Below are positions 34,736-48,230 of a stretch of DNA of 64,000 nt, one piece after another. Origin of the DNA: Bacteroidales bacterium UBA5219 (GTDB lineage Bacteria > Bacteroidota > Bacteroidia > Bacteroidales > ML635J-15); contig DHVB01000031.1 of the NCBI GenBank assembly GCA_002412425.1, positions 14,782 to 78,781 of the forward strand, written 5' to 3'. Below the pieces are notes generated by a model. The model was not told the origin of the DNA. It ran no database searches and saw only the letters and a list, made by a program, of their open reading frames with translations. Position 1 is the stretch's first letter, and each line of letters starts with the position of its first letter. The position numbers were made by a program, and so were the translations under genes.

Positions 34736-35212
34736 TACGGATAATTTCTAAAAAACACCCTGATACAAAATATAAAAGAGATATTAACAAAATAATTAAG
34801 TCATTAGAAGAAATCTATAAAAATTCAATACTAGAAGAAAATATACAAAACAATAATAAATTAATAAATGTGTTTTTAGATAATTAATATTTGTATTTTT
34901 CTAAAATCTTATTCAAAGTCGAAATTTTATATTCAATGATTAAATTATTAAAATCAAGTTCTGACGATAGGAAGAAGGTAATTTTAAATAATCTATGGGA
35001 AAGATTAGATACAATTGAAAACTATTATGAAGATATTAATGACATGCAATTTTATTAAAAAGGAAAAGAATAACTTATTTCAATAAAAATAAAGTTATTC
35101 TCCTTTTCCCCCACCCAAAACCAATTTAATCTAACATTTTCCTAAATAATTTTGCTTGCATAATTGTATAAAATTGTTAGTTTTGAGATTTATTTTAAAT
35201 ATTAGTAAGAAA

Positions 35213-36751
35213 GTGAGCAAAAAAGACACTCAAGTAGGAGAACCTTTAGAAAAACAACTTTGGAAAGCTGCAGATAAGTTGAGAAAAAACATTGATGCTG
35301 CCGTATATAAGCATGTGGTATTGGGATTGATTTTTTTAAAATACATTTCAGATGCCTTTGAAGAATTGTATGCTAAGTTAAAAGAGGAAGAAGCACAAGG
35401 AGCCGACCCAGAAGATAAAGACGAATACAAAGCAGAAAATGTTTTCTTTGTACCTCAGGCAGCACGTTGGCAATTACTGTTATCAAAAGCAAAACAACCC
35501 GATATTGGTAAATATGTTGATGATGCAATGGATGCCATAGAAAAAGAGAATGCTTCTTTAAAAGGAGTTTTGCCAAAAGTATATGCTCGACAAAATTTAG
35601 ACCCAACAAGTTTAGGCGAATTAATTGATTTGGTAAGCAATATTGCACTTGGTGATGCCAAAGCTCGCAGTGCAGATGTGCTTGGACATGTTTTTGAATA
35701 TTTTCTTGGTGAGTTTGCACTTGCCGAAGGTAAAAAAGGAGGGCAATTCTACACTCCTAAAAGTGTTGTTGAATTATTGGTTGCAATGTTACAACCATAT
35801 AAAGGACGTGTTTTCGACCCATGTTGTGGTTCTGGTGGAATGTTTGTACAAAGCGAAAGATTTGTTACCGAGCATCAGGGAAAAGTGAACGACATTTCTA
35901 TTTATGGGCAAGAAAGTAATCAGACCACTTGGCGTTTGTGTAAGATGAATCTTGCCATTAGAGGTATTGATAGTTCACAGGTAAAATGGAATAGCGAAGG
36001 CTCATTTTTGAACGATGCACATAAAGATTTAAAAGCTGATTATATTATTGCCAATCCACCTTTTAATGTAAGTGATTGGGGAGGCGAATTATTGCGTAAA
36101 GATGGACGTTGGCAATATGGAGTACCGCCTGTTGGTAATGCTAACTATGCTTGGATTCAGCATTTTCTTTATCATTTAGCACCCAATGGGCAAGCCGGAT
36201 TTGTATTGGCAAAAGGCTCGCTTACATCGAAAACATCGGGGGAAGGGGGTATTCGTAAAGCATTAATAGAAAATAACCTGATTGACTGCATTGTAAACCT
36301 GCCTGCAAAGCTTTTTTTGAATACGCAAATACCCGCTTCTCTTTGGTTTATGAACCGTAACCGTACAAACGGAAAATTTAGAGACCGCAGCAAGGAAATT
36401 TTGTTTATTGATGCACGAAACTTAGGTTATTTGATAAACCGCCGAACCAAAGAACTTTCGCAAGAAGATATTCAAAAAATTGCAGAAACTTATCACAATT
36501 GGAGAAACCCAGATGGTAAATACGAAGATATTGCTGGTTTTTGTGCTTCTACTCCAATTAGCAAAGTGGCTGAATTAGACTATGTACTTACTCCAGGTCG
36601 TTACGTTGGATTGCCAGAAGATGAGGACGACTTTAATTTTAACGAGCGTTTTACTGCCCTGAAAGCTGAATTGGAAGAACAGCTAAAGGAAGAAATACGT
36701 TTGAATGAAATCATTTCCACTAACCTTTCAAAGATTAAGACAAATGAGTGA
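35213..36751 (+). CDS. hsdM: type I R-M DNA methyltransferase subunit M (second system)
   Basis: [14 protein letters not shown]-terminus, motif [11 protein letters not shown] and motif [11 protein letters not shown] chose the GTG at 35213 because the track's N-terminal extension looks non-native. Confidence 0.95.
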
Positions 36752-37898
36752 GTGGAAAGAATATATACTTGAAGATGTAATCGAAAAATTTATAGATTAC
36801 AGGGGGAAAACTCCAAGAAAGACAAGTTTTGGAATTCCTTTAATGACTGCAAAAATCATAAAAGGAGGTCGGTTATTAGAACCAACGGAATATATTGCTA
36901 AAGAAGACTATTTTGATTGGATGACAAGAGGTTTCCCTGAAATTAATGACGTTTTATTAACTACAGAAGCTCCATTAGGTGAAGTTGCATTAGTGAAAGA
37001 TAAAAATGTGGCTTTAGGTCAAAGAATAATTACCCTTCAAACAAGAAAAGACTTATGTGATAGTGTTTTCCTAAAGTACTATTTGCAAAGTTTTGAAGGA
37101 CAGGCAACATTACAATCAAGAGCATCTGGTAGTACTGTTGAAGGTATTAAATCTGCAGAATTAAAAAAAATCGAAATTTCACTTCCACCATTAACCGAAC
37201 AAAAAAATATAGCCTTAATTCTATTTAATCTCGATAATAAAATTGACTTATTGCACCGCCAAAACGCCACCCTCGAAAAAATGGCGGAAACGCTGTTTAG
37301 GCAGTGGTTTGTGGAAGAAGCGAAGGAGGATTGGGAAACAATGCCTTTGAGCCAAATGGCTAATTTTTTAAATGGTTTAGCCTGTCAAAAGTTCCCGCCA
37401 AAAAATGAAATAGATAAGCTGCCTGTTTTAAAAATAAAAGAGTTAAGCAGTGGCATAACTGAAAATTCAGATTGGGCAAGCACAGATATAAAACCTGAAT
37501 ATTTTGTAAGAAATGGAGATGTTATTTTCGCTTGGTCTGCTTCTTTAATGGTTAAAATTTGGGATGGTCAGGATTGTATTCTCAATCAGCATTTGTTTAA
37601 AGTAACATCTAAAGATTATCCAAAGTGGTTTTACTATTTGTGGTGCAAGCACCACTTAGCAGAATTTATTTCAATTGCTGCAAGTCACGCAACCACAATG
37701 GGACATATTAAACGTGGTGATTTGGATGAAGCATTAGTTCTCATTCCTAATGAAGAGGATTTGAGTGCAATGACCCAAAAAGTTGACCCAATAATTGAAA
37801 AAGTAATTACAAATCAAACCCAAATCCTAACCCTCACGGCTTTGCGAGATACTTTATTGCCTAAGTTGATGAGTGGGGAGGTGAGGGTGGAAAAATAA
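36744..37898 (+). CDS. hsdS: type I R-M specificity subunit S (second system)
   Basis: Two TRDs with conserved [11 protein letters not shown] and [14 protein letters not shown] helices. The ATG at 36744 overlaps the hsdM stop (ATGAGTGA). Confidence 0.9.
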
Positions 37899-37920: not shown

Positions 37921-38565
37921 ATGGCAGAAAAATTTCAGAATAAATACAGAATGCAATCAAATCGTATGCCTCAGTGGGATTATTCGGGTAATGGTGTTTA
38001 TTTTATTACCATAGTAACGCAAAATAGGGTTTGTAATTTGGGACATATCAATAATGGTAAAATGATATTTTCAGAATTTGGAAAAATTATTAATGATGAA
38101 TGGTTAAAATCGTTTGAAATCCGAAATGAATTATTTTTAGATGAATATATTATAATGCCCAATCATTTACATGCAATTGTGGTGTTGGATAATACACAAA
38201 CAACCAATAATGGTTCGCACGACCGTAATGTAGGTTTGCACGGCCGTGTAAACCTACATTATCCAAATTATCCATTTCAACAGCCCGTTGAACAACCAAA
38301 ATTTATTCGTAAACCCAAATCAATTTCATCGTTTATTGCGGGTTTCAAATCGGTAATTAATACAAAAATTGATGATTACATTGATGAACACAATTTAAAC
38401 ATTCCAAAATACAATCGAAAAAATCATTTTTTCCAATCAAATTATTACGACCACATTATTCGAAATGAATCTGAATATCATCGAATAAAAGAATATATTA
38501 TCAACAATCCTATAAAATGGGAAAATAATAAATTAAATTCAACCAATAAAACAACAAAATCATGA
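37921..38565 (+). CDS. REP-associated tyrosine transposase (RAYT)/IS200-like Y1 transposase family protein
   Basis: HUH-type motif MPNHLHAIVV and a C-terminal YDHIIRNE tyrosine region. It is inserted between hsdS and the rest of the R-M operon. Confidence 0.75.
   Translation: MAEKFQNKYRMQSNRMPQWDYSGNGVYFITIVTQNRVCNLGHINNGKMIFSEFGKIINDEWLKSFEIRNELFLDEYIIMPNHLHAIVVLDNTQTTNNGSHDRNVGLHGRVNLHYPNYPFQQPVEQPKFIRKPKSISSFIAGFKSVINTKIDDYIDEHNLNIPKYNRKNHFFQSNYYDHIIRNESEYHRIKEYIINNPIKWENNKLNSTNKTTKS
38226..38261. repeat. 36-nt near-perfect palindrome inside the RAYT-like ORF
   Basis: TAATGTAGGTTTGCACGG|CCGTGTAAACCTACATTA pairs at 17/18 positions. It is GC-richer than its surroundings and encodes RNVGLHGRVNLHY. 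Confidence 0.85.
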
Positions 38566-38752: not shown

Positions 38753-40045
38753 ATGATACAAGAAATTAAAATAAAAAATTTCTTATCTTTTAAAGAAGAA
38801 GTTACGTTTAGTTTTGAAGCTACTAAAGACACTTTTGCAGATGATTACCAAGTGGTAGAGGTAGCAAAAGGGGTTCGCTTGTTGCGCTTTGCAATGATCT
38901 ATGGAGCAAATGCCTCGGGAAAATCAAATTTACTGACTGTATTCAATTTTTTACATCATTTTTGGTTCTATAAACCTGATGATATAGATGAGGAAATAGG
39001 AGTAATTCCTTTTAAATTAGATAAAATTACAACCAATGAGCCATCTTCATTTGAATTAATATTCTATGTTAACAGTACTAAGTATTGGTATCAATTAGAG
39101 TTAGATGAAAAGCAAGTTTATACAGAAAAATTATTTTATTACAAAACTGTTCAACCTACCCTTTTATTTCATAGAGAATTAATAAATGATCAATCTGTTA
39201 TTAACTTTAACTCTGCTGCTGTTAAAGTAAGTTCTGTAGTTAAAGAAAAAATTTCAGTGGAGTGTCTAAAAAACATGTCTTTCTTTGCAGCTCGAGACAA
39301 AGTAAATGCTACTATTCCTGAGATTGATGTAGCTAAAGACTGGTTAAAAAAGCAAATTATGCCTGTTGTATCACCTCGTACAAAGATGTTTCAATATGCA
39401 GAAAAACAAATGTTAGAAAATAAGGATATAAAATCATATCTATTGGATTTTGTACGTGCTGCGGATTTTAATATTGTAGATATCAACACACAAATTGAAA
39501 AAAAGGAAATACCTCAAAAAGTTGTTGATTATTTTATGAATAACCCCGAGACAACAAAACAAGAAAAAGAGAAACTTAAAAAGGACCGTTTTGTTTCAAC
39601 TCCAAAAACAAGTTTTATGCATACGGTAAGCAATGAACGAGGCGAAGAAATATACAGTTTACCCGAAAATCTACAATCAGAAGGCACAAAAAGAATCTTT
39701 GGTTTAGAAGCTGCTATTTACAATGCTATTCAGGACAATTGTTTTTTATTTATTGACGAAGTCGAAACATCTTTGCACCCACAGTTACTTAGATTTGTTT
39801 TGCTCAACTTCTTAAGAAAAGAATCGTCAAGGTCACAATTATTAATCACAACACATTATGATCCTTTATTAAATGATATTGATGAAATTTTCAGAAAAGA
39901 CAGTGTTTGGTTTACTGAAAAAACAAAATCTGGTCATACAGATGTCTATTCTTTGACTGATTTTAAAGGTTTGAACAGGCTTTCTTCCATACAAAAAGCC
40001 TACAACTACAGGAAATTTGGTGCATATCCTGAAATAGATTTATAG
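38753..40045 (+). CDS. AAA_21-type ATPase (AbiLi/RloA-like)
   Basis: IKNFLSFKE N-terminus, Walker A GANASGKSN, Walker B/D-loop LFIDEVETSLHP and LITTHY. Confidence 0.8.
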   Translation: MIQEIKIKNFLSFKEEVTFSFEATKDTFADDYQVVEVAKGVRLLRFAMIYGANASGKSNLLTVFNFLHHFWFYKPDDIDEEIGVIPFKLDKITTNEPSSFELIFYVNSTKYWYQLELDEKQVYTEKLFYYKTVQPTLLFHRELINDQSVINFNSAAVKVSSVVKEKISVECLKNMSFFAARDKVNATIPEIDVAKDWLKKQIMPVVSPRTKMFQYAEKQMLENKDIKSYLLDFVRAADFNIVDINTQIEKKEIPQKVVDYFMNNPETTKQEKEKLKKDRFVSTPKTSFMHTVSNERGEEIYSLPENLQSEGTKRIFGLEAAIYNAIQDNCFLFIDEVETSLHPQLLRFVLLNFLRKESSRSQLLITTHYDPLLNDIDEIFRKDSVWFTEKTKSGHTDVYSLTDFKGLNRLSSIQKAYNYRKFGAYPEIDL

Positions 40046-40048
40046 GTT

Positions 40049-40484
40049 ATGGCAAGAAAAACAAAGAAAAGCCGGAGAGGTTATTGCCGGTGGTGGTGTT
40101 GCCGTGTGTGTATTCGATGCTGATATTTCGGAACGTAACGAAAATGAAAAGAAAAAATTGGAACAACTTCGTAAAAAATATGAAAAAGAGGAAAACATCA
40201 TTTTCTGTGATAGCTTACCGTCTATTGAGTTTTGGTTTTTATTACATTATTGCAATACTAATAAATATTTCAAGGATTCTAAATCGGTTGAGAGAGAATT
40301 GCGAAAATTTATAGTTCAATACGAAAAGAAAAAAGTTTTCTTAGAAAAAGAAAAATGGGTTGCTGACTTATGTGCAGAGAATAAAATGAAATTAGCTCAA
40401 CAAAGAGTAGAAATTTTTTCTAAGGAAAAAGGCTCTTATTCTAATATTTATAAGATTTTTAAAATCATAATAACAAAACAATGA
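40049..40484 (+). pseudogene. RloB-like (AbiLii-like) gene remnant, N-terminal region lost or frameshifted
   Basis: ATG 40049 gives MARKTKKSRRG..., which stops at 40123. A second frame (open through 40104-40484) carries the RloB-type C-terminal part (VFDAD...FCDSLPSIEFWFLLHY). The expected CEGxxTE N-terminal motif is absent. Confidence 0.5.
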
Positions 40485-43400
40485 ACATTATAGCTGAATT
40501 CCACATAGAACAATTTGCAATTTCTTTGTTCAAAGAACTTGGTTACGACTATATCTATGCTCCAGATATAGCTCCCGATGGAGAAACACCAGAAAGAGAA
40601 TCCTACGAGCAAGTTTTATTGCTTGGTCGTCTTAAAAATGCTGTAAAACGCATAAATAAAACCATTCCAGACTATGCACAAGACGAAGCAATAAAAACAA
40701 TTCAGCGTATATCTTCTCCAGATTTAGAAACTAATAATGAAACTTTTCACAGGCTATTAACAGAAGGTATTCCTGTAACAAAACGAGTGGACGGAATAGA
40801 CCGTGGAGACCGTGTTTGGATTATAGATTTTAAAAATCCATACAATAATGATTTTGTTGTTGCCAACCAGTTTACAATAGTTGAAAACAATCAAAACAAA
40901 CGTCCCGATATTATTTTGTTTGTAAATGGTATTCCGTTGGTAGTAATTGAGTTAAAAAATCCAGCAGATGAAAAAGCTACTATTCGTTCGGCATTTAAAC
41001 AAATTGAAACTTATAAGGCTATAATTCCAAGTTTATTTACCTATAATGGTATTGTTGTTATTTCAGATGGTTTAGAAGCTAAGGCAGGTTCTATTTCATC
41101 AGGTATGAGCAGGTTTATGTCATGGAGGTCGGCAGATGGAAAATCAGAGGCACCACATTTGGTAAGTGAATTAGAAACTCTTATTTTGGGTATGCTCAAT
41201 AAAGAGACATTGCTTGATTTAATTCGTCATTTTATTGTTTTTGAACAAACAAAACGTGAAGACCCAAAAACAGGAACTAATACTATATCCATAGTTAAAA
41301 AACTTGCTGCGTACCATCAATACCATGCTGTGAACCGTGCAGTAGAATCCACATTACGCGCAGCTGGCTATAATTCCCCTCCTTTGGAGGGGTGGACAGC
41401 GCAGCTGGACGGGGTGGTTTCTTCCCCTCCTCTGGAGGGGTGGTCGCAGACCGGGGTGGTATATTACCCTCCTTTAGAAGACACTCAAACACAATCTGAC
41501 GAAATGATTGCAGATTCAAAAGGTATTTATCGTAACTCTCAAAATTATTTTGAACTTCCTTATAATCCGCAGCTAAAAGAACGTGCTAGAGCATTACGTC
41601 AAGCTGGAAACTTATCAGAAGTGCTTTTTTGGAATCAGGTTAAAAATAAACAATTTAAAGGATATGATTTTGATCGCCAAAAAATAATTGGAAACTACAT
41701 AGTTGACTTTTATTGTAGTAATTGCAATGTAGTAATAGAGATAGATGGAAGTAGCCATGATAATAAAGTAGAATATGATGCAAACAGAGATGCTTATTTA
41801 GAAAGTTTGGGATTAACAATTATTCATATTCCTGTAGAAGACGTATTGCATAGAATGGATGTGGTTATGGATATGCTTTTTGATCACCCTGCCCTGCGGA
41901 CACCACTCCAAATAAAAGGAAAAAATAGAGACGACGAAAACCTAGTACAAGAACCTCCAGAAAATTACGGTTTACCTGGAGTAAAAAAACAGCCTATTGG
42001 AGACCGCAAAGGCGGTGTAGTTTGGCATACACAAGGTAGTGGGAAATCGCTTTCAATGGTTTTTTATGCAGGAAAAATTGTGCTGGCAATGAATAATCCT
42101 ACAATTGTTGTAATAACCGACCGTAACGATTTGGACGACCAACTTTTTGATACATTTGCGGCATCTAAACAATTATTACGTCAAGAACCAGTGCAAGCCG
42201 AAGATAGAAATCATCTGAAAGAACTTTTAAAAGTTGCATCAGGCGGTGTAGTTTTTACAACCATTCAGAAATTTCAACCTTATGAAGGAAATGTTTATGA
42301 ATTGCTTTCTGACCGTGAAAATATTATCGTAATTGCTGATGAGGCACACCGCACGCAATATGGATTTAAAGCAAAAACTATTGACGATAAAAATGAATCA
42401 GGAGATGTTATTGGCAAAAAAGTAGTTTACGGTTTTGCAAAATATATGCGTGATGCTTTACCAAATGCAACCTATTTAGGTTTTACAGGCACACCTATTG
42501 AAAGTACTGATGTAAATACTCCAGCAGTCTTCGGCAATTACGTAGATGTTTATGATATTGCCCAAGCTGTTGAAGATGGAGCAACTGTCCCAATTTATTA
42601 CGAAAGTCGTTTGGCAAAAGTAAATTTGAGTGAAGAAGGTAAAAAGTTGGTTGAAGACTTAGACGAAGAACTCGACCAAGAGGATATGACAAATACTCAA
42701 AAAGCAAAAGCCAAATGGACACAATTGGAAGCATTGGTAGGTAGCGAAAACCGAATTAACCAAATTGCAAAAGATATAATCGAACATTTTGAGCAAAGGC
42801 AAAGTGTTTTTGAAGGTAAAGCTATGATTGTTACTATGAGTCGACGTATTGCAGCCGATTTGTACGAAGCTATTATAAAACTAAAGCCTGAATGGTATTC
42901 AGATGAGTTAAATAAAGGTGTAATCAAAGTGGTGATGACTTCAGCTTCATCTGATGGACCTAAGATTTCAAAACACCATACAAGTAAAGAGCAACGCCGC
43001 ATATTAGCTGATCGTATGAAAAACCCAGATGATGAATTAAAACTTGTTATAGTCAGGGATATGTGGCTAACAGGTTTTGATGTTCCATGTTTGCATACCC
43101 TTTATATAGATAAACCTATGAAAGGACACAATTTAATGCAAGCTATTGCAAGGGTAAATCGTGTTTATAAAGATAAACCAGGTGGTTTAGTTGTAGATTA
43201 TTTAGGAATAGTAGCTGATTTAAAAAGAGCACTTTCGTTTTATTCCGATTCTGGAGGCAAAGGAGACCCAACTATTTTACAAGAAGAAGCTGTTCAGATG
43301 ATGTTAGAAAAAATAGAAGTGGTGTCTCAAATGTTTAATGAATTCCCCTCCTCTGGAGAGGTGTCCGAAGGACGGGGTGGTTTTAATTACTATGATTATT

Positions 43401-44290
43401 TTAATGCTGAAACTTCCAAAAAACTTTCAATAATTTTAGCCGCCGAAGAACATATTTTAGGTTTGGAAAATGGAAAAAAACGATATATAAATGAAGTTTC
43501 AGCATTATCAAAAGCTTTTGCAATAGCTATACCATACGAACAAGCAATAGATGCGAAAGATGAAGTTGCTTTCTTTCAGGCAGTAAAGGCACGTTTGGTA
43601 AAATTTGATAATACAGGTTCTGGTAAAACCGATGAAGAAATTGAAACAACTATACGTCAAGTAATCGACAAAGCATTGGTAACTGAAAAAGTAATAGATA
43701 TTTTCGATGCTGCAGGAATTAAAAAGCCTGATATTTCAATACTCTCAGAAGAATTTCTCTTAGAACTAAAAGGAATGGAACACAAAAACATTGCTTTTGA
43801 AGTATTGAAAAAAATCCTAAACGATGAAATAAAATCAAGGGCAAAAAAGAACTTTGTTAAAAGTAAGACTTTAAAGGAAATGTTAGAAGAATCCATAAGA
43901 AAATATCATGCTAAAATTATTTCAGCAGCCGAAGTAATAGAAGAATTAATAAAGCTAAGCAGAGACATCGTTAAGATAGACAGCGAAGCGAAAGAAATGG
44001 GGCTAACAGATTTTGAATATGCTTTTTACACAGCTGTTGCAGAAAATAAAAGTGCAAAAGAGTTAATGGGAAAAGAAAAATTAAGAGAACTTGCTGTAGT
44101 TCTTACAGAATCAATTAGAAGGAATGCAACTATTGATTGGACAATTAAAGAAAGTGTAAAAGCAAAATTAAGAGTTACAGTAAAAAGACTTTTAAGAAAA
44201 TATGGTTATCCACCAGATATGCAAATGCTTGCAACTGAAACTGTATTGGCACAAGCAGAATCGATTGCAAACGAATTAGCAAATGAATAA
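40481..44290 (+). CDS. hsdR: type I restriction endonuclease subunit R with an in-frame ~200-aa insertion
   Basis: PD-ExK (PDIILFVNGIPLVVIELKN). Helicase motifs HTQGSGKS, ADEAHR, FTGTP and QAIARVNR. At 1269 aa it is longer than the length I recall as typical for this HsdR family (about 1000-1080 aa). Confidence 0.93.
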   Translation: MNIIAEFHIEQFAISLFKELGYDYIYAPDIAPDGETPERESYEQVLLLGRLKNAVKRINKTIPDYAQDEAIKTIQRISSPDLETNNETFHRLLTEGIPVTKRVDGIDRGDRVWIIDFKNPYNNDFVVANQFTIVENNQNKRPDIILFVNGIPLVVIELKNPADEKATIRSAFKQIETYKAIIPSLFTYNGIVVISDGLEAKAGSISSGMSRFMSWRSADGKSEAPHLVSELETLILGMLNKETLLDLIRHFIVFEQTKREDPKTGTNTISIVKKLAAYHQYHAVNRAVESTLRAAGYNSPPLEGWTAQLDGVVSSPPLEGWSQTGVVYYPPLEDTQTQSDEMIADSKGIYRNSQNYFELPYNPQLKERARALRQAGNLSEVLFWNQVKNKQFKGYDFDRQKIIGNYIVDFYCSNCNVVIEIDGSSHDNKVEYDANRDAYLESLGLTIIHIPVEDVLHRMDVVMDMLFDHPALRTPLQIKGKNRDDENLVQEPPENYGLPGVKKQPIGDRKGGVVWHTQGSGKSLSMVFYAGKIVLAMNNPTIVVITDRNDLDDQLFDTFAASKQLLRQEPVQAEDRNHLKELLKVASGGVVFTTIQKFQPYEGNVYELLSDRENIIVIADEAHRTQYGFKAKTIDDKNESGDVIGKKVVYGFAKYMRDALPNATYLGFTGTPIESTDVNTPAVFGNYVDVYDIAQAVEDGATVPIYYESRLAKVNLSEEGKKLVEDLDEELDQEDMTNTQKAKAKWTQLEALVGSENRINQIAKDIIEHFEQRQSVFEGKAMIVTMSRRIAADLYEAIIKLKPEWYSDELNKGVIKVVMTSASSDGPKISKHHTSKEQRRILADRMKNPDDELKLVIVRDMWLTGFDVPCLHTLYIDKPMKGHNLMQAIARVNRVYKDKPGGLVVDYLGIVADLKRALSFYSDSGGKGDPTILQEEAVQMMLEKIEVVSQMFNEFPSSGEVSEGRGGFNYYDYFNAETSKKLSIILAAEEHILGLENGKKRYINEVSALSKAFAIAIPYEQAIDAKDEVAFFQAVKARLVKFDNTGSGKTDEEIETTIRQVIDKALVTEKVIDIFDAAGIKKPDISILSEEFLLELKGMEHKNIAFEVLKKILNDEIKSRAKKNFVKSKTLKEMLEESIRKYHAKIISAAEVIEELIKLSRDIVKIDSEAKEMGLTDFEYAFYTAVAENKSAKELMGKEKLRELAVVLTESIRRNATIDWTIKESVKAKLRVTVKRLLRKYGYPPDMQMLATETVLAQAESIANELANE
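41376..41480. repeat. tandem GC-rich palindromic elements (CCCCTCC-TTT-GGAGGGG...GGGGTGGT), 2.5 copies, in frame within hsdR
   Basis: Copies start at 41376, 41424 and 41467 (partial), with a 48-nt period. They encode SPPLEGW...GVV repeats. Confidence 0.85.
41552..41890 (+). other. DUF559 / Vsr-like endonuclease domain embedded in hsdR
   Basis: LRQAGNLSEVLFWNQVKNKQFKGYDFDRQKIIGNYIVDFYCSNCNVVIEIDGSSHD...RDAYLESLGLTIIHI is the typical DUF559 core. Confidence 0.8.
43345..43382. repeat. fourth copy of the GC-rich palindromic element, in frame in the hsdR 3' half
   Basis: cccctcctctggagaggtgtccgaaggacggggtggtt is almost identical to the copy at 41424-41460. Confidence 0.8.
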
Positions 44291-45042: not shown

Positions 45043-45621
45043 ATGAGAATTTTTCAAATTCAAATTGCTTTAAAAGGGTTTAGACCAAAAATCTGGAGAA
45101 GAATATTAGTTCCTGAAAATGTATTATTACCCGATTTTCATAAAATTATTCAAACAACAATGGGTTGGACAAATTCTCATTTGCACCATTTTGTCAAAGG
45201 TAGATCATATTATGTACATAAGACAGAAGATGATGTTTTTGTGGGTAATAATAGTGATATTGATTATGCAAAAATTAAAATTTCAGACTTACTTAGTTTC
45301 GAAAAGGATAAAATTATTTATGAATATGATTTTGGTGATGACTGGGAGCATGATATTGTGTTAGAAAAAATTCTTCCGTATGATAATAAATTAGTTTATC
45401 CGATTTGTGTAAAAGGCAAAATGAATTGTCCACCCGAAGACTGCGGAGGAGTTCTCGGGTATGCATACATGTTAGAGGTGATAAAAGATCCAGAACATGA
45501 AGATTATGAAGAGCTTAGAGATTGGTTAGGAGAAGAATTTGATCCAGAATTTTTTGACATTGACACTGTAAATGAATTATTAAAAAGAAAAGATTTTGGG
45601 TGTCTAGATTTATTTTATTAG
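45043..45621 (+). CDS. pRiA4b ORF-3-like (MM3350-like) family protein
   Basis: IALKGFRPKIWRRILVP, GWTNSHLHHF, YEYDFGDDWEHDI and CPPEDCGG. Confidence 0.75.
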   Translation: MRIFQIQIALKGFRPKIWRRILVPENVLLPDFHKIIQTTMGWTNSHLHHFVKGRSYYVHKTEDDVFVGNNSDIDYAKIKISDLLSFEKDKIIYEYDFGDDWEHDIVLEKILPYDNKLVYPICVKGKMNCPPEDCGGVLGYAYMLEVIKDPEHEDYEELRDWLGEEFDPEFFDIDTVNELLKRKDFGCLDLFY

Positions 45622-45726: not shown

Positions 45727-45788
45727 AATCTAAAAATTATTTTACTATATTTGTGAAATGAAAATGTTGTATTTATTAATTGAATCTA
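45727..45788. repeat. left 62-bp direct repeat bracketing the R-M/helicase cassette
   Basis: aatctaaaaattattttactatatttgtgaaatgaaaatgttgTatttaTtaattgaatcta is 60/62 identical to 51038-51099. Confidence 0.95.
45746..45753 (+). promoter_or_regulatory. TAtaTTTG -7 box inside the left direct repeat
   Basis: Matches the consensus and lies 49 nt upstream of the ATG at 45802. Confidence 0.4.
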
Positions 45789-45801
45789 CATTGACGAAGA
45801 A

Positions 45802-46716
45802 ATGAAAATAGATAAAAATCTGAAAAACAAAAAAGTAGAACTTTTGCAATACTATCGCAGTCGAGCAGAAGAATTTTTAAGTGAAATAAAACTTACTTAT
45901 GGCAATACCCAATATAGAGAACAAGCATCTGCTATTAACAAATCACTCATAGAAACTAAAGATATTTTGTTGGCAACACTTTTGCAGATAGCAGAAAATG
46001 AGAAGTGGACAAATAGGGAAAAACTCGAAAGTATTCTAATGATCACTTATACAAATTACATTGTAATGCTTGAATCAAGAAATAATGTTTGGTCCTATGA
46101 ATATATGACATTTTCAAGAAGAATTGGCGAATTATGGGAACCTTTTTGTAAACTTTGTTTTGCTTATCCTATTAATAAAATTCAACTATTCATACCACCA
46201 TTATTTTCTGAAGTTAAAAAGAAATTATCAGATGAAATAGAGGCGTATATTGATAAATTGAAAATATCAAAAGAAGAAAAAAAACAATTAAAAAAGTATT
46301 ATTACAAAGTTTGGGGACTTGTAACATCGGGAGAAATAAAACTTGAGTTAGATTTACATTTTATCTATAATAATCAAAAAATTGTTGTTGATTTTAAAAG
46401 TGGGTTTGGCTCAAACGAAAAAGGAAATACAAACAGACTTCTTTTGGTTGCTAGTATTTATAAAAACTTAGAAGAAAATTATAAATGCATGATTTTTGTT
46501 AGAGCGAATGAAAATAATCATTATTTTCAAACACTCAAGAACTCAGGTATTTGGGATGCTTTTAGTGGAGCAGAAGCATATAATCAAATGAATATTTTTT
46601 CTGGGTTTGATATTAAAAATTGGATTGAACTTAATGTTAATTGGGAGAAAGATTTCAAAAAAGAAACAATGCAATTTTTTAAACAAAACAATCTTGACCA
46701 ATACTTAATTTGGTAA
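45802..46716 (+). CDS. hypothetical protein, candidate PD-(D/E)xK restriction endonuclease
   Basis: ELDLHFIYNNQKIVVDFKSG fits a D...DxK nuclease core. Its stop overlaps the methyltransferase start (TAATG). Confidence 0.45.
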   Translation: MKIDKNLKNKKVELLQYYRSRAEEFLSEIKLTYGNTQYREQASAINKSLIETKDILLATLLQIAENEKWTNREKLESILMITYTNYIVMLESRNNVWSYEYMTFSRRIGELWEPFCKLCFAYPINKIQLFIPPLFSEVKKKLSDEIEAYIDKLKISKEEKKQLKKYYYKVWGLVTSGEIKLELDLHFIYNNQKIVVDFKSGFGSNEKGNTNRLLLVASIYKNLEENYKCMIFVRANENNHYFQTLKNSGIWDAFSGAEAYNQMNIFSGFDIKNWIELNVNWEKDFKKETMQFFKQNNLDQYLIW

Positions 46717-48230
46717 TGTTTCAGGAAGCAAGAAAATATCAGGCATTTTATACCAAATCAACTCCGATTGTTGATTATATGGTGCAAAACTTATCATTAA
46801 AATCTGATGATAGAATATTAGAACCATGCGGAGGCGATGGGGTCTTTGTAGAATCAATTATTGATAAAAATGAATATGCATATGTTGATATTTATGAATT
46901 GAATGAAAAATCTATAAAAATATTAAATAAAAAATTTTCATATTTACCTAATGTAAGAATAAAACATAGCGACACGCTTTTAGACGAAGAATTAATATTT
47001 AATTCAAGCTTTGGGGGAATTTATGACAAAATTATTGCAAATCCACCTTATGGAGCATGGCAGGATTATGAAAAAAGAGATGTTTTAAAGAAATTATTTC
47101 CAAATATCTATACAAAAGAAACTTATGGTTTATTCCTTTATAGGAGTATTGAACTATTGAGGGATAAAGGATTACTCACTTTCATAATCCCTGACACATA
47201 TTTAAATTTGCACATGCATAAAGCTTTGCGAAAGCATATTTTAAAAAAAACCAAAATAAAAGAACTTGCACTATTTCCATCTTCATTTTTCCCTGGTGTA
47301 AATTTTGGTTATGCAAATTTATCTATAATTACACTTGAGAAATGTTTTAACCAGAAAGAATGTTTAAATAATAATTTCAAAATAATTAATGGATTCAAAA
47401 ACGTAGAACAACTATCGGATATAAATTCGGAAACAGATTTAAATATAAAAATTTATCATCAAAAGGATATTTATACAAACCCTGACCATGCATTTTTGAT
47501 TTCTGATAATTTTGAAATAATAAATGCAATTAATAATTCAAAACTAAAAATAGGAGAAATTGCAAGTTGTGTAACTGGCTTCTACTCAGGAGATGATAAA
47601 ACATTTTTGCAAGTTAGTAATACGGATTTGAAAAATGCAAAAAATTATAATATAGTTAATCCTAATTCAATAAATAGGGATTATCAAAATATTTCCAATT
47701 TACTTGATGGTATTAATGGGACAAAACATTTTATACCAATTGTTAAAGGTGGAAATGTAAAATACTTGAAGTCAGAAGGGTGGTTTATGAATTGGAGCAA
47801 GGAAGCTGTAAAGCATTATAAAACTGATAAGAAAGCAAGATTTCAAAACCCTCAATTTTATTTTAAATTTGGAATAGGCGTACCAATGATTAGTAGCAGT
47901 AGCATTACTGCATCATTAATTGAATACAAATTATTTGATCAAAGTATTGTTGGAATCTTTCCAAAAGACGAAAGTTTAACGTATTATTTATTAGCATTTT
48001 TTAATTCGCCTACTTGTAATAAATTCATTCGAACAATAAATCCATCGGCAAATAATCCTGCCAATTATATCAAGAAAATTCCATTTATTATTCCTGAAAA
48101 ACATGTTTTAAATTTAATAAATCAGAAAACAAGTGAAATTCTTAATTCAATTAAACAATTAGGGGGTTATAATGATGATACTGAGAGGGAAATTTGGAGT
48201 ATAATTGAAGAAATATATCAAATTGATTAA
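46716..48230 (+). CDS. N6-adenine DNA methyltransferase (gamma class, Eco57I/TaqI-like)
   Basis: Motif I LEPCGGDGVF and motif IV IIANPPYG, with a long C-terminal target-recognition region. Confidence 0.85.
   Translation: MFQEARKYQAFYTKSTPIVDYMVQNLSLKSDDRILEPCGGDGVFVESIIDKNEYAYVDIYELNEKSIKILNKKFSYLPNVRIKHSDTLLDEELIFNSSFGGIYDKIIANPPYGAWQDYEKRDVLKKLFPNIYTKETYGLFLYRSIELLRDKGLLTFIIPDTYLNLHMHKALRKHILKKTKIKELALFPSSFFPGVNFGYANLSIITLEKCFNQKECLNNNFKIINGFKNVEQLSDINSETDLNIKIYHQKDIYTNPDHAFLISDNFEIINAINNSKLKIGEIASCVTGFYSGDDKTFLQVSNTDLKNAKNYNIVNPNSINRDYQNISNLLDGINGTKHFIPIVKGGNVKYLKSEGWFMNWSKEAVKHYKTDKKARFQNPQFYFKFGIGVPMISSSSITASLIEYKLFDQSIVGIFPKDESLTYYLLAFFNSPTCNKFIRTINPSANNPANYIKKIPFIIPEKHVLNLINQKTSEILNSIKQLGGYNDDTEREIWSIIEEIYQID

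What the first reader, a model, noticed from the sequence alone, without database searches (positions are those of the whole stretch)
41370..41990. In-frame insertion of a DUF559 (Vsr-like endonuclease) module into the type I hsdR gene
The hsdR ORF (40481-44290, 1269 aa) runs normally through the N-terminal PD-ExK nuclease region up to ...YHAVNRAVESTLRAAG. It resumes the canonical sequence at ...GDRKGGVVWHTQGSGKS (helicase motif I). From memory of related HsdR proteins, these two landmarks are usually separated by a few tens of residues. Here about 200 residues intervene. They consist of 2.5 copies of a GC-rich palindromic element (SPPLEGW...GVV) followed by a complete DUF559 core (41552-41890: LFWNQVKNKQFKGYDFDRQKIIGNYIVDFYCSNCNVVIEIDGSSHD...). 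The segment ends in HPALRTPLQIKG. The insertion preserves the reading frame and contains no stops. The result is a single polypeptide carrying two different nuclease folds plus the translocase. It could be a tolerated selfish insertion or a functional domain acquisition.
Basis: partly seen in the sequence, partly recalled or inferred. Interest (0 to 1): 0.7.

Follow-up and report, generated by a model that had tools for sequence, protein, structure and literature searches.

The report
Nuclease cassette inserted in restriction gene
The restriction-enzyme gene hsdR carries, in frame, a small intact Vsr-like (DUF559) nuclease gene bounded by inverted GC-rich double-hairpin repeats, and the same cassette sits in frame in many kinds of restriction-modification genes across bacterial phyla, which looks like an undescribed mobile element or plug-in module.

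Summary
The hsdR ORF (40481-44290, 1269 aa) holds a 190-codon in-frame insert (41372-41941) between its nuclease domain and its motor domain. The insert has two intact GC-rich repeat units and one decayed unit. A complete DUF559 domain follows (Pfam E 1.6e-28; the model matches PDB 3hrl). It ends in a decayed, inverted unit.

It is an insertion, not a native segment. About 105 of the 120 closest HsdR clusters lack it at 82-87% identity. Several of these carry deletion footprints at the site.

The same cassette occurs elsewhere as a free-standing gene. It also occurs in frame in HsdS, Type ISP/IIG enzymes, Eco57I/MmeI-like enzymes and N6/N4 methyltransferases, in more than ten phyla. It has inverted arrays of a 42-48-nt unit on both sides of a DUF559 core. 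Hairpin 1 of the unit is invariant and hairpin 2 covaries.

Single units also sit in frame elsewhere in hsdR, including 43341-43382 here. Putative active-site residues are kept in 118/118 embedded copies.

Best reading (0.6): a selfish, mobile or formerly mobile nuclease cassette tolerated in a permissive linker. Main rival: a recruited accessory nuclease. No paper describing it was found.

The parts
40481..44290 (+). hsdR ORF, 1269 aa. Type I restriction subunit with the insert read through in frame.
   Evidence: ORF list; TIGR00348 620 bits; Pfam domains. The same gene, about 99.6% identical at the DNA level, is found in three independent assemblies.
40496..41095 (+). Native N-terminal PD-(D/E)xK nuclease domain (HSDR_N, aa 6-205). 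The motif RPDIILFVNGIPLVVIELK is intact.
   Evidence: Pfam E 4.8e-53; sequence. A close insert-free homologue (P0267) aligns to the EcoR124I endonuclease domain.
41372..41941 (+). The whole insert relative to insert-free alleles: 190 codons, aa 298-487.
   Evidence: Alignment with 118 insert-bearing and 108 insert-free homologues. DNA comparison with L004, L005, L206 and L209.
41372..41419 (+). Repeat unit 1 (48 nt): AATT + hairpin 1 (CCCCTCC TTT GGAGGGG) + hairpin 2 (CAGC GCA GCTG) + GGGGTGG. Translated as NSPPLEGWTAQLDGVV.
   Evidence: Pattern search. The DNA fold shows both hairpins.
41420..41461 (+). Repeat unit 2 (42 nt): hairpin 1 (CCCCTCC TCT GGAGGGG) + hairpin 2 (GGTC GCA GACC) + GGGGTGG. 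Translated as SSPPLEGWSQTGVV.
41462..41527 (+). Third unit, decayed towards A+T (TATTACCCTCCTTTAGAAGAC...), plus the linker to the DUF559 core.
   Evidence: Repeat family D1, 81% identical to unit 2. Comparable to SPSLEGCQTQSDGV in homologues.
41546..41896 (+). DUF559 (Vsr-like PD-(D/E)xK) core of 117 aa. The Pfam match covers 41573-41878. Putative active-site residues D, E-x-D and H are all present.
   Evidence: Pfam. Match to PDB 3hrl, E 7e-23. AF2 pLDDT 89.9; Foldseek hits 3hrl, 3r3p and 1vsr. Residue conservation.
41885..41926 (-). Right-end unit in inverted orientation, decayed (CACCCTGCCCTGCGGACACCACTCCAAATAAAAGGAAAAAAT). Translated as HPALRTPLQIKGKN.
   Evidence: Inverted repeat I1 with unit 1, 76% complementary. 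Intact counterparts occur in homologues, for example the L010 right end. It no longer folds.
41942..41989 (+). Native linker LVQEPPENYGLPGVKKQPI, leading into helicase motif I.
   Evidence: Conserved in insert-free alleles as (M/L)V(M/Q)ESPESYG(V/L)PGVKKQP(I/V).
41999..42685 (+). SWI2/SNF2 (RecA1) motor domain.
   Evidence: Pfam E 3.8e-76. A close insert-free homologue (P0267) aligns to EcoR124I helicase domain 1.
43341..43382 (+). Single unit inserted in frame in the C-terminal part of hsdR (EFPSSGEVSEGRGG). Hairpin 1 has one G>A change; hairpin 2 (GTCC GAA GGAC) is intact.
   Evidence: The same site is occupied in 43 of 226 homologues and empty in L004 and L206.
37921..38565 (+). RAYT-like (REP-associated tyrosine transposase-like) ORF in the same operon. 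It may be linked to the repeat units, but this is unproven.
   Evidence: NCBIfam NF047646 E 9e-17, 61 bits, below the 80-bit cutoff. Pfam Y1_Tnp E 3e-4. Homologues lie directly upstream of hsdR in L008, L018, L020 and L042; none in 8 insert-free loci.

Best explanation
The insert is one copy of a compact cassette of selfish (mobile or formerly mobile) origin.

Anatomy:
- A DUF559 (Vsr-like) nuclease gene is bounded on both sides, in inverted orientation, by arrays of a 42-48-nt GC-rich double-hairpin unit.
- The unit lengths are mostly multiples of three.
- The invariant parts of the unit contain no stop codon in any frame.

Because of these properties the cassette can sit inside a coding sequence and be translated straight through. 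The hairpin arrays become Pro/Gly/Ser-rich flexible linkers. The nuclease is made as an extra internal domain using the host gene's transcription and translation.

In this window the cassette lies in the variable linker between the HsdR endonuclease domain and RecA1. HsdR therefore most likely stays functional.

Shown:
- It is an insertion.
- The anatomy is as described.
- There is purifying selection on the nuclease.
- There is selection at the DNA level on the hairpins.
- The cassette is present in many non-homologous restriction-modification hosts.
- It has been lost repeatedly, leaving footprints.

Inferred:
- It spreads by a homing-like or hairpin-directed process, probably using the DUF559 nuclease.
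- It mainly travels horizontally together with restriction-modification genes.

In this A+T-rich genome the copy looks inherited with the hsdR gene and partly decaying at its ends. It does not look actively transposing.
For: Insertion:
- Insert-free alleles are as close as insert-bearing ones.
- Linker classes include the empty site, single-unit footprints (P0093 FNSPLEDGNLV; 29 clusters FHSTPQEGVVE) and an internal deletion (FNLPYNKEGHSV).
- Insert-free alleles are nested at six or more places among insert-bearing ones. The window's sister is a footprint allele.

Cassette anatomy:
- The hairpin CCCCTCC-N2-4-GGAGGGG lies on one or both sides of the core in about 65 of 80 genome loci. Loops are mostly T-rich upstream and A-rich downstream.
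- The hairpin 1 stem is invariant in 28/28 units.
- Hairpin 2 covaries: 3 of 4 pairs change on both sides, 99.7% of cells are paired, and the covariation score is 0.237 against 0.092 in shuffles (0/500 reach it). Slid controls score 0.043 or less.

Other hosts:
- The core is 57-90% identical across loci.
- It is free-standing or in frame in HsdR, HsdS, Type ISP/IIG, Eco57I/MmeI/TaqI-type enzymes and N6_N4 methyltransferases.
- In the metagenome sample 61 of 80 copies are embedded. In the 36 non-HsdR hosts, restriction-modification families were the only host families detected.
- Of 71 neighbours of free-standing copies, 19 family hits are restriction-modification families.

Unit-only in-frame insertions:
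- They occur at three or more further hsdR sites.
- They are seen in 62/118 DUF559-bearing alleles against 1/108 DUF559-free alleles.
- In 16 insert-bearing loci there are 49 hairpins inside hsdR and 3 outside. Eight insert-free loci have none.

Selection on the nuclease:
- Residues D54, E65, D67 and H71 are kept in 118/118 embedded copies.
- dN/dS is about 0.09 with dS saturated.

Fold: close to 3hrl and to the homing endonuclease I-Bth0305I.

Unit spacing is a multiple of 3 in 89 of 110 cases.

The insert lies between the stretches of an insert-free homologue that align to the EcoR124I endonuclease domain and helicase domain 1.
Against: - No movement has been observed.
- No target-site duplication is evident at the two sites compared.
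- No near-identical copies at different loci were found.
- The neighbour-joining tree of DUF559 cores is star-like. Repeated gain, as opposed to one gain with many losses, is therefore not demonstrated.
- Core and host identities are positively correlated (Mantel r 0.54). This fits substantial vertical co-inheritance.
- Embedded copies are restricted to restriction-modification proteins. All 160 or so hsdR copies are in frame and co-oriented. Both facts would also fit a host-useful module.
- In this window the units occur only inside hsdR. There is no sign of spread in this genome.
- The counts are not corrected for phylogeny, and the homologue samples are biased by the queries used.
Confidence: 0.6

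Rival explanations
1. Recruited accessory nuclease. The DUF559 module is a functional part of these restriction-modification enzymes. It could be a second cleavage or nicking activity delivered to DNA by the host enzyme's recognition and translocation machinery. The hairpin-encoded peptides would merely be linkers that made domain shuffling easy.
For: In the non-HsdR embedded copies, restriction-modification families were the only host families detected. All are in frame and co-oriented. Active-site residues are kept in 118/118 copies and dN/dS is low. In some N6_N4 methyltransferase hosts no other nuclease domain was detected. Vsr-like domains fused to helicases are proposed effectors in another defence family (PMC11090510). 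A DUF559 protein of Caulobacter causes DNA damage when a cognate methylation is missing (PMC12907096).
Against: Closely related HsdR alleles do without it, and it has been lost repeatedly. The same cassette is free-standing next to housekeeping genes. It sits at non-homologous positions, including inside specificity domains and HsdS. The invariant DNA hairpins are conserved far beyond what a peptide linker needs, while synonymous sites are saturated. A different nuclease, GIY-YIG, is inserted in the same way at two other sites.
Confidence: 0.25
2. The repeat units are REP-like sequences mobilised by a RAYT-like tyrosine transposase. DUF559 is only cargo or a neighbour trapped between two arrays.
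For: A RAYT-like ORF lies in the same operon (37921-38565). Homologues lie directly upstream of hsdR in 4 other insert-bearing loci and in none of 8 insert-free loci. The units are double hairpins with GNA triloops and an invariant tag, as expected for elements recognised as single-stranded DNA. Hairpin units occur without DUF559 in viral contigs.
Against: The units flank DUF559, not the RAYT-like gene. Most cassette loci have no such gene within 5 kb. The match to the RAYT family is below its cutoff (61 against 80 bits). The association (5 of 17 against 0 of 8) is not significant. In the loci examined, units cluster inside the gene that carries DUF559.
Confidence: 0.12
3. Invertible on/off switch. 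Recombination between the inverted unit arrays flips the cassette and truncates HsdR, giving phase-variable restriction.
For: Inverted repeats flank the cassette. The antisense strand of the core has no long ORF, so inversion would truncate HsdR. 'DUF559 domain-containing protein' is enriched among predicted programmed-inversion targets (PMC9881135).
Against: No inverted copy was found among 42 hsdR loci or 118 full-length proteins. No invertase is encoded nearby. The right-end unit in this window is decayed.
Confidence: 0.04
4. Native segment of an HsdR subfamily, an intein or intron, or an assembly artefact.
For: More than 100 homologues carry it at the same position.
Against: Insert-free alleles and footprints exist. 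No Hint or intein domain was found, and the junctions (G/YN...N/LV) lack intein residues. No Rfam intron matched. The reading frame is kept in every copy. The sequence is reproduced in three independent assemblies.
Confidence: 0.02

Closest known systems
[quoted passage not shown] 2000, as reviewed in PMC10969869)
   Same: Short palindromic repeats are inserted in frame into ORFs and translated as extra peptide segments at permissive sites. Presence is patchy among homologues.
   Different: The units here are 42-48 nt, not about 100-150 bp. They form arrays in inverted orientation around a nuclease gene. In the loci examined they are concentrated in restriction-modification genes rather than in unrelated metabolic genes. 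RPEs encode no enzyme.
Homing endonuclease genes, especially the Vsr-like family of I-Bth0305I (PDB 3r3p) and the endonucleases of 'fractured genes' (PMC2677866)
   Same: A small nuclease ORF with a Vsr-like fold (Foldseek E 3e-4) is sporadically present at one fixed site in otherwise near-identical host genes, and is repeatedly lost.
   Different: There is no intron or intein to remove it, so it stays in the mature protein. It is bounded by structured inverted repeats. It occurs at non-homologous sites in several host families. Cleavage of empty alleles is untested.
REP sequences with their RAYT transposases (REPtrons; PMC3733652; PDB 4er8)
   Same: GC-rich palindromic units carry an invariant tag and a structure-conserved stem, and lie in inverted orientation around an enzyme gene. 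Single and arrayed units occur elsewhere.
   Different: The enclosed gene is a PD-(D/E)xK nuclease, not an HUH tyrosine transposase. The units are intragenic and translated rather than extragenic. In this window they are not dispersed.
DUF559 / Vsr-like endonucleases (PF04480; PDB 3hrl; Caulobacter VsrA, PMC12907096)
   Same: The domain is a clear member by sequence and fold.
   Different: Known examples are stand-alone proteins. Classical Vsr is linked to C5-cytosine methyltransferases. Here the partners are N6-adenine type I/IIG/ISP/III-like enzymes and the domain is internal to them.

Membership tests
DUF559 (PF04480), Vsr-like PD-(D/E)xK nuclease | Profile match above the curated cutoff | tested here: met
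   99.2 bits against a 20.6 cutoff, E 1.6e-28, profile positions 3-104 of 109. PDB 3hrl E 7e-23.
DUF559 (PF04480), Vsr-like PD-(D/E)xK nuclease | Vsr-like alpha/beta fold | tested here: met
   AF2 model pLDDT 89.9. Foldseek: 3hrl E 8e-7 with TM 0.81 (target-normalised), then 3r3p and 1vsr.
DUF559 (PF04480), Vsr-like PD-(D/E)xK nuclease | Conserved acidic and His residues (D...E-x-D-G..H) | tested here: met
   IVDF...EIDGSSH is present in the window. D54, E65, D67 and H71 are kept in 118/118 embedded copies. Catalysis itself cannot be tested here.
Classical Vsr (very-short-patch repair endonuclease, PF03852) | Match to the Vsr profile and linkage to a C5-cytosine methyltransferase | tested here: not met
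   PF03852 is not among the Pfam hits at E<=0.01. The operon methyltransferase is N6_Mtase/HsdM. T:G nicking cannot be tested.
Type I restriction subunit HsdR | HsdR profile, N-terminal PD-(D/E)xK motif, SF2 motor and C-terminal helical domain, in an hsdM-hsdS-hsdR operon | tested here: met
   TIGR00348 620 bits against a 284 cutoff. Domains. hsdM is at 35156-36751 and hsdS at 36705-37898.
Homing endonuclease gene | Sporadic presence at one site among close homologues | tested here: met
Homing endonuclease gene | Housed in a self-splicing intron or intein, or free-standing between genes | tested here: not met
   In-frame internal domain; no Hint domain; no intron family.
Homing endonuclease gene | Cleaves the empty allele and is copied into it | not testable with these tools
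   Needs biochemistry and genetics.
REP/RAYT system | Units flank an HUH tyrosine transposase gene and are dispersed in the genome | tested here: not met
   Units flank DUF559. The RAYT-like ORF lies about 2.8 kb upstream and is not flanked by units. There are no units elsewhere in the 64 kb.
In-frame palindromic elements (RPE-like MITEs) | Palindromic repeat inserted in frame in ORFs, absent from orthologues | tested here: met
   The unit at 43341-43382 is absent from L004 and L206. Unit-only insertions occur at three or more hsdR sites.
In-frame palindromic elements (RPE-like MITEs) | Many copies in unrelated genes of one genome | tested here: not met
   In this window all copies are in hsdR. 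Whole genomes could not be scanned.
TIR transposon / MITE | Terminal inverted repeats plus target-site duplication | tested here: inconclusive
   Inverted unit arrays are present. No duplication is evident at the two filled/empty comparisons.

The most novel reading that the evidence does not exclude
A previously unrecognised class of mobile element. In it, a Vsr-like DUF559 nuclease is the mobilising enzyme for its own double-hairpin terminal repeats, a nuclease-repeat partnership analogous to RAYT-REP. The element has specialised in colonising restriction-modification genes in frame. It uses them for expression, for DNA targeting and for horizontal spread, and it seeds the same genes with translated single-unit copies.
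Probability: 0.3. Interest if true: 0.85.

Novelty: new variant of a known kind. Interest (0 to 1): 0.7.

Why it matters
- It would add a third way for a selfish nuclease gene to live inside a coding sequence, alongside introns and inteins. No splicing is needed. The element stays in the protein on flexible, repeat-encoded linkers.
- It would show that restriction-modification genes, themselves selfish and mobile, are a preferred habitat for another layer of selfish DNA.
- It gives DUF559, a very large family without an assigned function, a concrete and testable role with a candidate DNA substrate: the invariant CCCCTCC/GGAGGGG hairpin.
- If the module is instead useful to the host, it is a natural plug-in nuclease cassette for several restriction enzyme classes, which is of interest for enzyme engineering.
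- On a practical level, these repeat-encoded peptides and extra domains affect the annotation and classification of type I/IIG/III enzymes.

Tried and rejected
- **Tree of DUF559 cores.** Embedded and free-standing copies interleave, but internal branches are very short. It cannot prove repeated gains.
- **Six-frame stop-free property of the units.** It holds only partly: 52% of unit cores against 36% of shuffles. An earlier dimer test was flawed by artificial junctions. I claim it only for the invariant parts.
- **Inversion switch.** No inverted cassette was found in 42 hsdR loci.
- **Target-site duplication.** None is evident.
- **Plasmid database.** No close relative, all hits below 40% identity.
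- **Viral contigs.** The hairpin motif is frequent, but only one distant DUF559 match was found. Many hits belong to another hairpin family or may be chance.
- **Rfam.** Nothing matched the units.
- **PADLOC.** No defence family matched the DUF559 core beyond a weak DpdF hit.
- **720-aa AF2 model of the N-terminal half.** It is poor (mean pLDDT 48). It shows only that DUF559 is the best-predicted part and that the unit-encoded flanks are coil. It cannot show the spatial arrangement.
- **dN/dS.** Synonymous sites are saturated for most pairs.
- **Literature (7 searches).** No description of this cassette or of HsdR-DUF559 fusions was found. The library is incomplete, so prior description cannot be excluded.
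Full report
**1. Observation**

The ORF 40481-44290 (+) is uninterrupted and encodes 1269 aa. Pfam finds these domains:
- HSDR_N, aa 6-205
- DUF559/PF04480, aa 365-466, E 1.6e-28
- SWI2_SNF2, aa 507-735
- T1R_D3-like
- T1RH-like_C

NCBIfam confirms an HsdR (620 bits).

Between TLRAAG and GDRKGG there are 210 residues here, against 28-31 in insert-free relatives. The GC-rich palindrome CCCCTCC-N3-GGAGGGG-TGG occurs at 41376 and 41424, where shuffles give none. A decayed third copy follows. Local GC reaches 0.62 in a 0.30-GC window.

Two corrections apply:
- Both nuclease modules belong to the PD-(D/E)xK superfamily.
- A further single unit lies in frame at 43341-43382.

**2. It is an insertion**

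With the whole protein as query, the best 120 clusters nearly all carry PF04480. That ranking is inflated by the insert itself. With the insert removed from the query, about 105 of the best 120 clusters lack it (1074-1129 aa, 82-87% identity). This is the same distance as insert-bearing alleles.

Linkers of insert-free alleles fall into classes:
- A majority 'empty' form, SGFSIEKETPLSMVMESPESYG.
- Single-unit footprints: P0093 FNSPLEDGNLV, 29 clusters with FHSTPQEGVVE, and P0339 with one whole unit.
- An internal deletion that keeps the first residues of DUF559 (FNLPYNKEGHSV).

At the DNA level P0093 retains just AATTCCCCTCTGGAGGATGGGAATT.

On a neighbour-joining tree of the HsdR body, insert-free alleles are nested at six or more places among insert-bearing ones. 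The window's sister is the P0093 footprint allele.

The insertion point falls in the unaligned stretch between the segments of an insert-free homologue that match the EcoR124I endonuclease domain and helicase domain 1. This is a variable inter-domain linker.

**3. Anatomy of the insert**

In all 118 insert-bearing HsdR proteins the DUF559 core has repeat-encoded peptides on both sides:
- It is preceded by 1 to more than 10 copies of a peptide such as NSPPLEGWSQTGVV or FPSSGGVVEDRGG.
- It is followed by HPALSGTPPEEGN or HPALRAPLQRRG.

These peptides are the same DNA unit read in different frames and on opposite strands. The unit arrays therefore flank the core in inverted orientation.

The unit (42 or 48 nt in most cases) is made of:
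- AATT
- hairpin 1, CCCCTCC-N3-GGAGGGG
- T
- hairpin 2, a 4-7-bp stem with a GAA or GCA triloop
- GGGGTGG

Across 28 distinct units from 32 loci the hairpin 1 stem never varies. Hairpin 2 varies with compensation:
- 3 of 4 pairs change on both sides.
- 99.7% of cells are paired.
- The covariation score is 0.237, against 0.092 in shuffles (0 of 500 reach it) and 0.043 or less for slid partners.

Synonymous sites of the neighbouring coding sequence are saturated. The hairpins are therefore conserved as nucleic acid, not as peptide.

In the window, units 1 and 2 fold as two double hairpins (-19.3 kcal/mol, z -2.5). The third left unit and the right-end unit have decayed towards A+T and no longer fold.

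Spacing of successive hairpins is a multiple of three in 89 of 110 cases. Unit cores are stop-free in all six frames more often than shuffles (52% against 36%).

**4. The nuclease**

- A profile of 27 cores matches PDB 3hrl, a DUF559 protein, at E 7e-23.
- An AlphaFold model (pLDDT 89.9) matches 3hrl, then the homing endonuclease I-Bth0305I (3r3p), then E. coli Vsr.
- The putative active-site residues D54, E65, D67 and H71 are present in the window and in 118/118 embedded copies.
- Where it can be computed, dN/dS is about 0.09, against 0.04 for RecA1.
- A 720-aa model of the N-terminal half is poor (mean pLDDT 48). DUF559 is its best-predicted part and the unit-encoded flanks are coil. This is weak support for an independent domain on flexible linkers.

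**5. The same cassette elsewhere**

Free-standing DUF559 ORFs of 120-210 aa are 70-85% identical to the core and carry the same terminal peptides.

A scan of species-representative genomes gave at least 585 confirmed loci. The best 80 come from more than ten phyla. These include Bacteroidota, Calditrichota, Cloacimonadota, Bacillota, Desulfobacterota, Cyanobacteria, Pseudomonadota, Spirochaetota, Armatimonadota and Patescibacteria. About 17 are in HsdR, about 45 are free-standing, and the rest lie inside other large ORFs.

The other large hosts are:
- Type ISP/IIG enzymes, where the Type_ISP_C domain is split by the insert
- Eco57I/MmeI/TaqI-type enzymes
- N6_N4 methyltransferases
- HsdS

In a metagenome sample of close relatives, 25 of 80 are in HsdR, 36 are in other large ORFs and 19 are free. 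In the 36 other ORFs, restriction-modification families were the only host families detected. Of 71 genes next to free-standing copies, 19 family hits are type I or Eco57I families. Others are housekeeping genes. The hairpin motif lies on one or both sides of the core in about 65 of the 80 genome loci.

**6. Unit-only insertions and other cassettes in HsdR**

Relative to an insert-free reference, homologues carry the following:
- unit arrays after aa about 31-37 (about 45 proteins)
- unit arrays after aa 553-557
- unit arrays after aa 772 (43 proteins, including the window)
- GIY-YIG nuclease cassettes with a different palindrome at aa 220 and 315

Unit-only insertions occur in 62 of 118 DUF559-bearing alleles but in 1 of 108 DUF559-free alleles. 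This count is not corrected for phylogeny.

In 16 insert-bearing loci, 49 hairpins lie inside hsdR and 3 outside. Eight insert-free loci have none. A footprint allele (L209) also shows a remnant at the aa-772 site. Both elements were therefore once present there and were later reduced.

**7. Interpretation**

The best-supported reading is a cassette of selfish origin that can live inside coding sequences without splicing. The following all point that way:
- structured inverted terminal repeats under DNA-level selection
- an intact nuclease under purifying selection
- free-standing and embedded forms
- non-homologous insertion sites in several host families
- patchy distribution with footprints
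- satellite single units

How it moves is inferred, not shown. Fold similarity to a homing endonuclease and same-site sporadic distribution suggest homing-like copying between homologous restriction genes after horizontal transfer. The GNA-triloop hairpins suggest recognition of single-stranded or extruded DNA.

The main rival is that the module is useful to the enzymes that carry it. The restriction to restriction-modification hosts, the universal in-frame co-orientation, and a partial correlation of core and host divergence (r 0.54) are what that rival would predict. The two readings are not exclusive.

A RAYT-like gene in the operon (37921-38565) recurs directly upstream of hsdR in four other insert-bearing loci. 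It offers another candidate mobiliser, but the association is weak.

An inversion switch is not supported, since no inverted copy was found. Intein, intron, native-segment and artefact readings are contradicted.

In this particular genome the units are confined to hsdR and the cassette ends are decaying. The copy most likely arrived with the gene and is not actively spreading here.

**8. Novelty**

Automatic annotations already label such proteins 'R subunit/very-short-patch-repair endonuclease'. Seven literature searches found no description of the cassette, its repeats, or its association with restriction-modification genes.

Two papers touch on it indirectly:
- A survey of programmed inversions lists DUF559 proteins among enriched targets, without explanation (PMC9881135).
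- Reviews describe in-frame palindromic elements in Rickettsia (PMC10969869).

I rate it a new variant of known kinds (in-frame palindromic elements, homing-type nuclease genes, REP-like repeats). Interest is fairly high. The held library is incomplete, so a prior description cannot be ruled out.

Noticed in passing
window 43341-43382: A single 42-nt double-hairpin unit is inserted in frame in the C-terminal part of hsdR (EFPSSGEVSEGRGG). The same site is occupied in 43 of 226 homologues and empty in L004 and L206.
   Followed up: yes
window 37921-38565: A RAYT-like (REP-associated tyrosine transposase-like) ORF lies between hsdS and the AAA ATPase gene. It scores below the family cutoff (61 against 80 bits). 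Homologues lie directly upstream of hsdR in L008, L018, L020 and L042, and none in 8 insert-free loci.
   Followed up: partly
window 40049-40484 (and 38753-40045): The RloB-like gene upstream of hsdR has a 152-nt internal deletion with a frameshift, relative to the otherwise 99.6% identical contig L001. Its partner AAA ATPase matches PADLOC AbiLi (E 5e-73). An AbiL-like pair nested in the type I operon is therefore probably inactivated here.
   Followed up: partly
L008 4259-4647; also P0008, P0073, P0104, P0115: GIY-YIG nuclease cassettes are inserted in frame at two other HsdR sites (reference aa 220 and 315). They are flanked by a different GC-rich palindrome (WPVCVQRTGRK / ...KARQAGG). L008 HsdR (1469 aa) carries five separate insertions.
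   Followed up: partly
window about 45788-46680: The window has about 0.9 kb, including ORF 45802-46716, that contig L001 lacks at the corresponding place. It lies next to a methyltransferase-like ORF at 46710-48230.
   Followed up: no
viral contigs, e.g. L151, L115, L089: A second repeat family shares hairpin 1 but continues with TTAGGGGAGGCT (agcctcccc...CCCCTCC-NNN-GGAGGGG). It is frequent in some viral contigs, with no DUF559 nearby.
   Followed up: no
L038 4830-6224: The DUF559 cassette reads through, stop to stop, into a radical SAM domain ORF. This is the only apparent host outside restriction-modification families, and it may be a read-through artefact of the stop-to-stop translation.
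   Followed up: no
window 45043-45621: A PRiA4_ORF3-like (plasmid pRiA4b ORF-3-like) gene lies downstream of the type I operon (Pfam E 4e-65). This fits a mobile or defence-island context.
   Followed up: no
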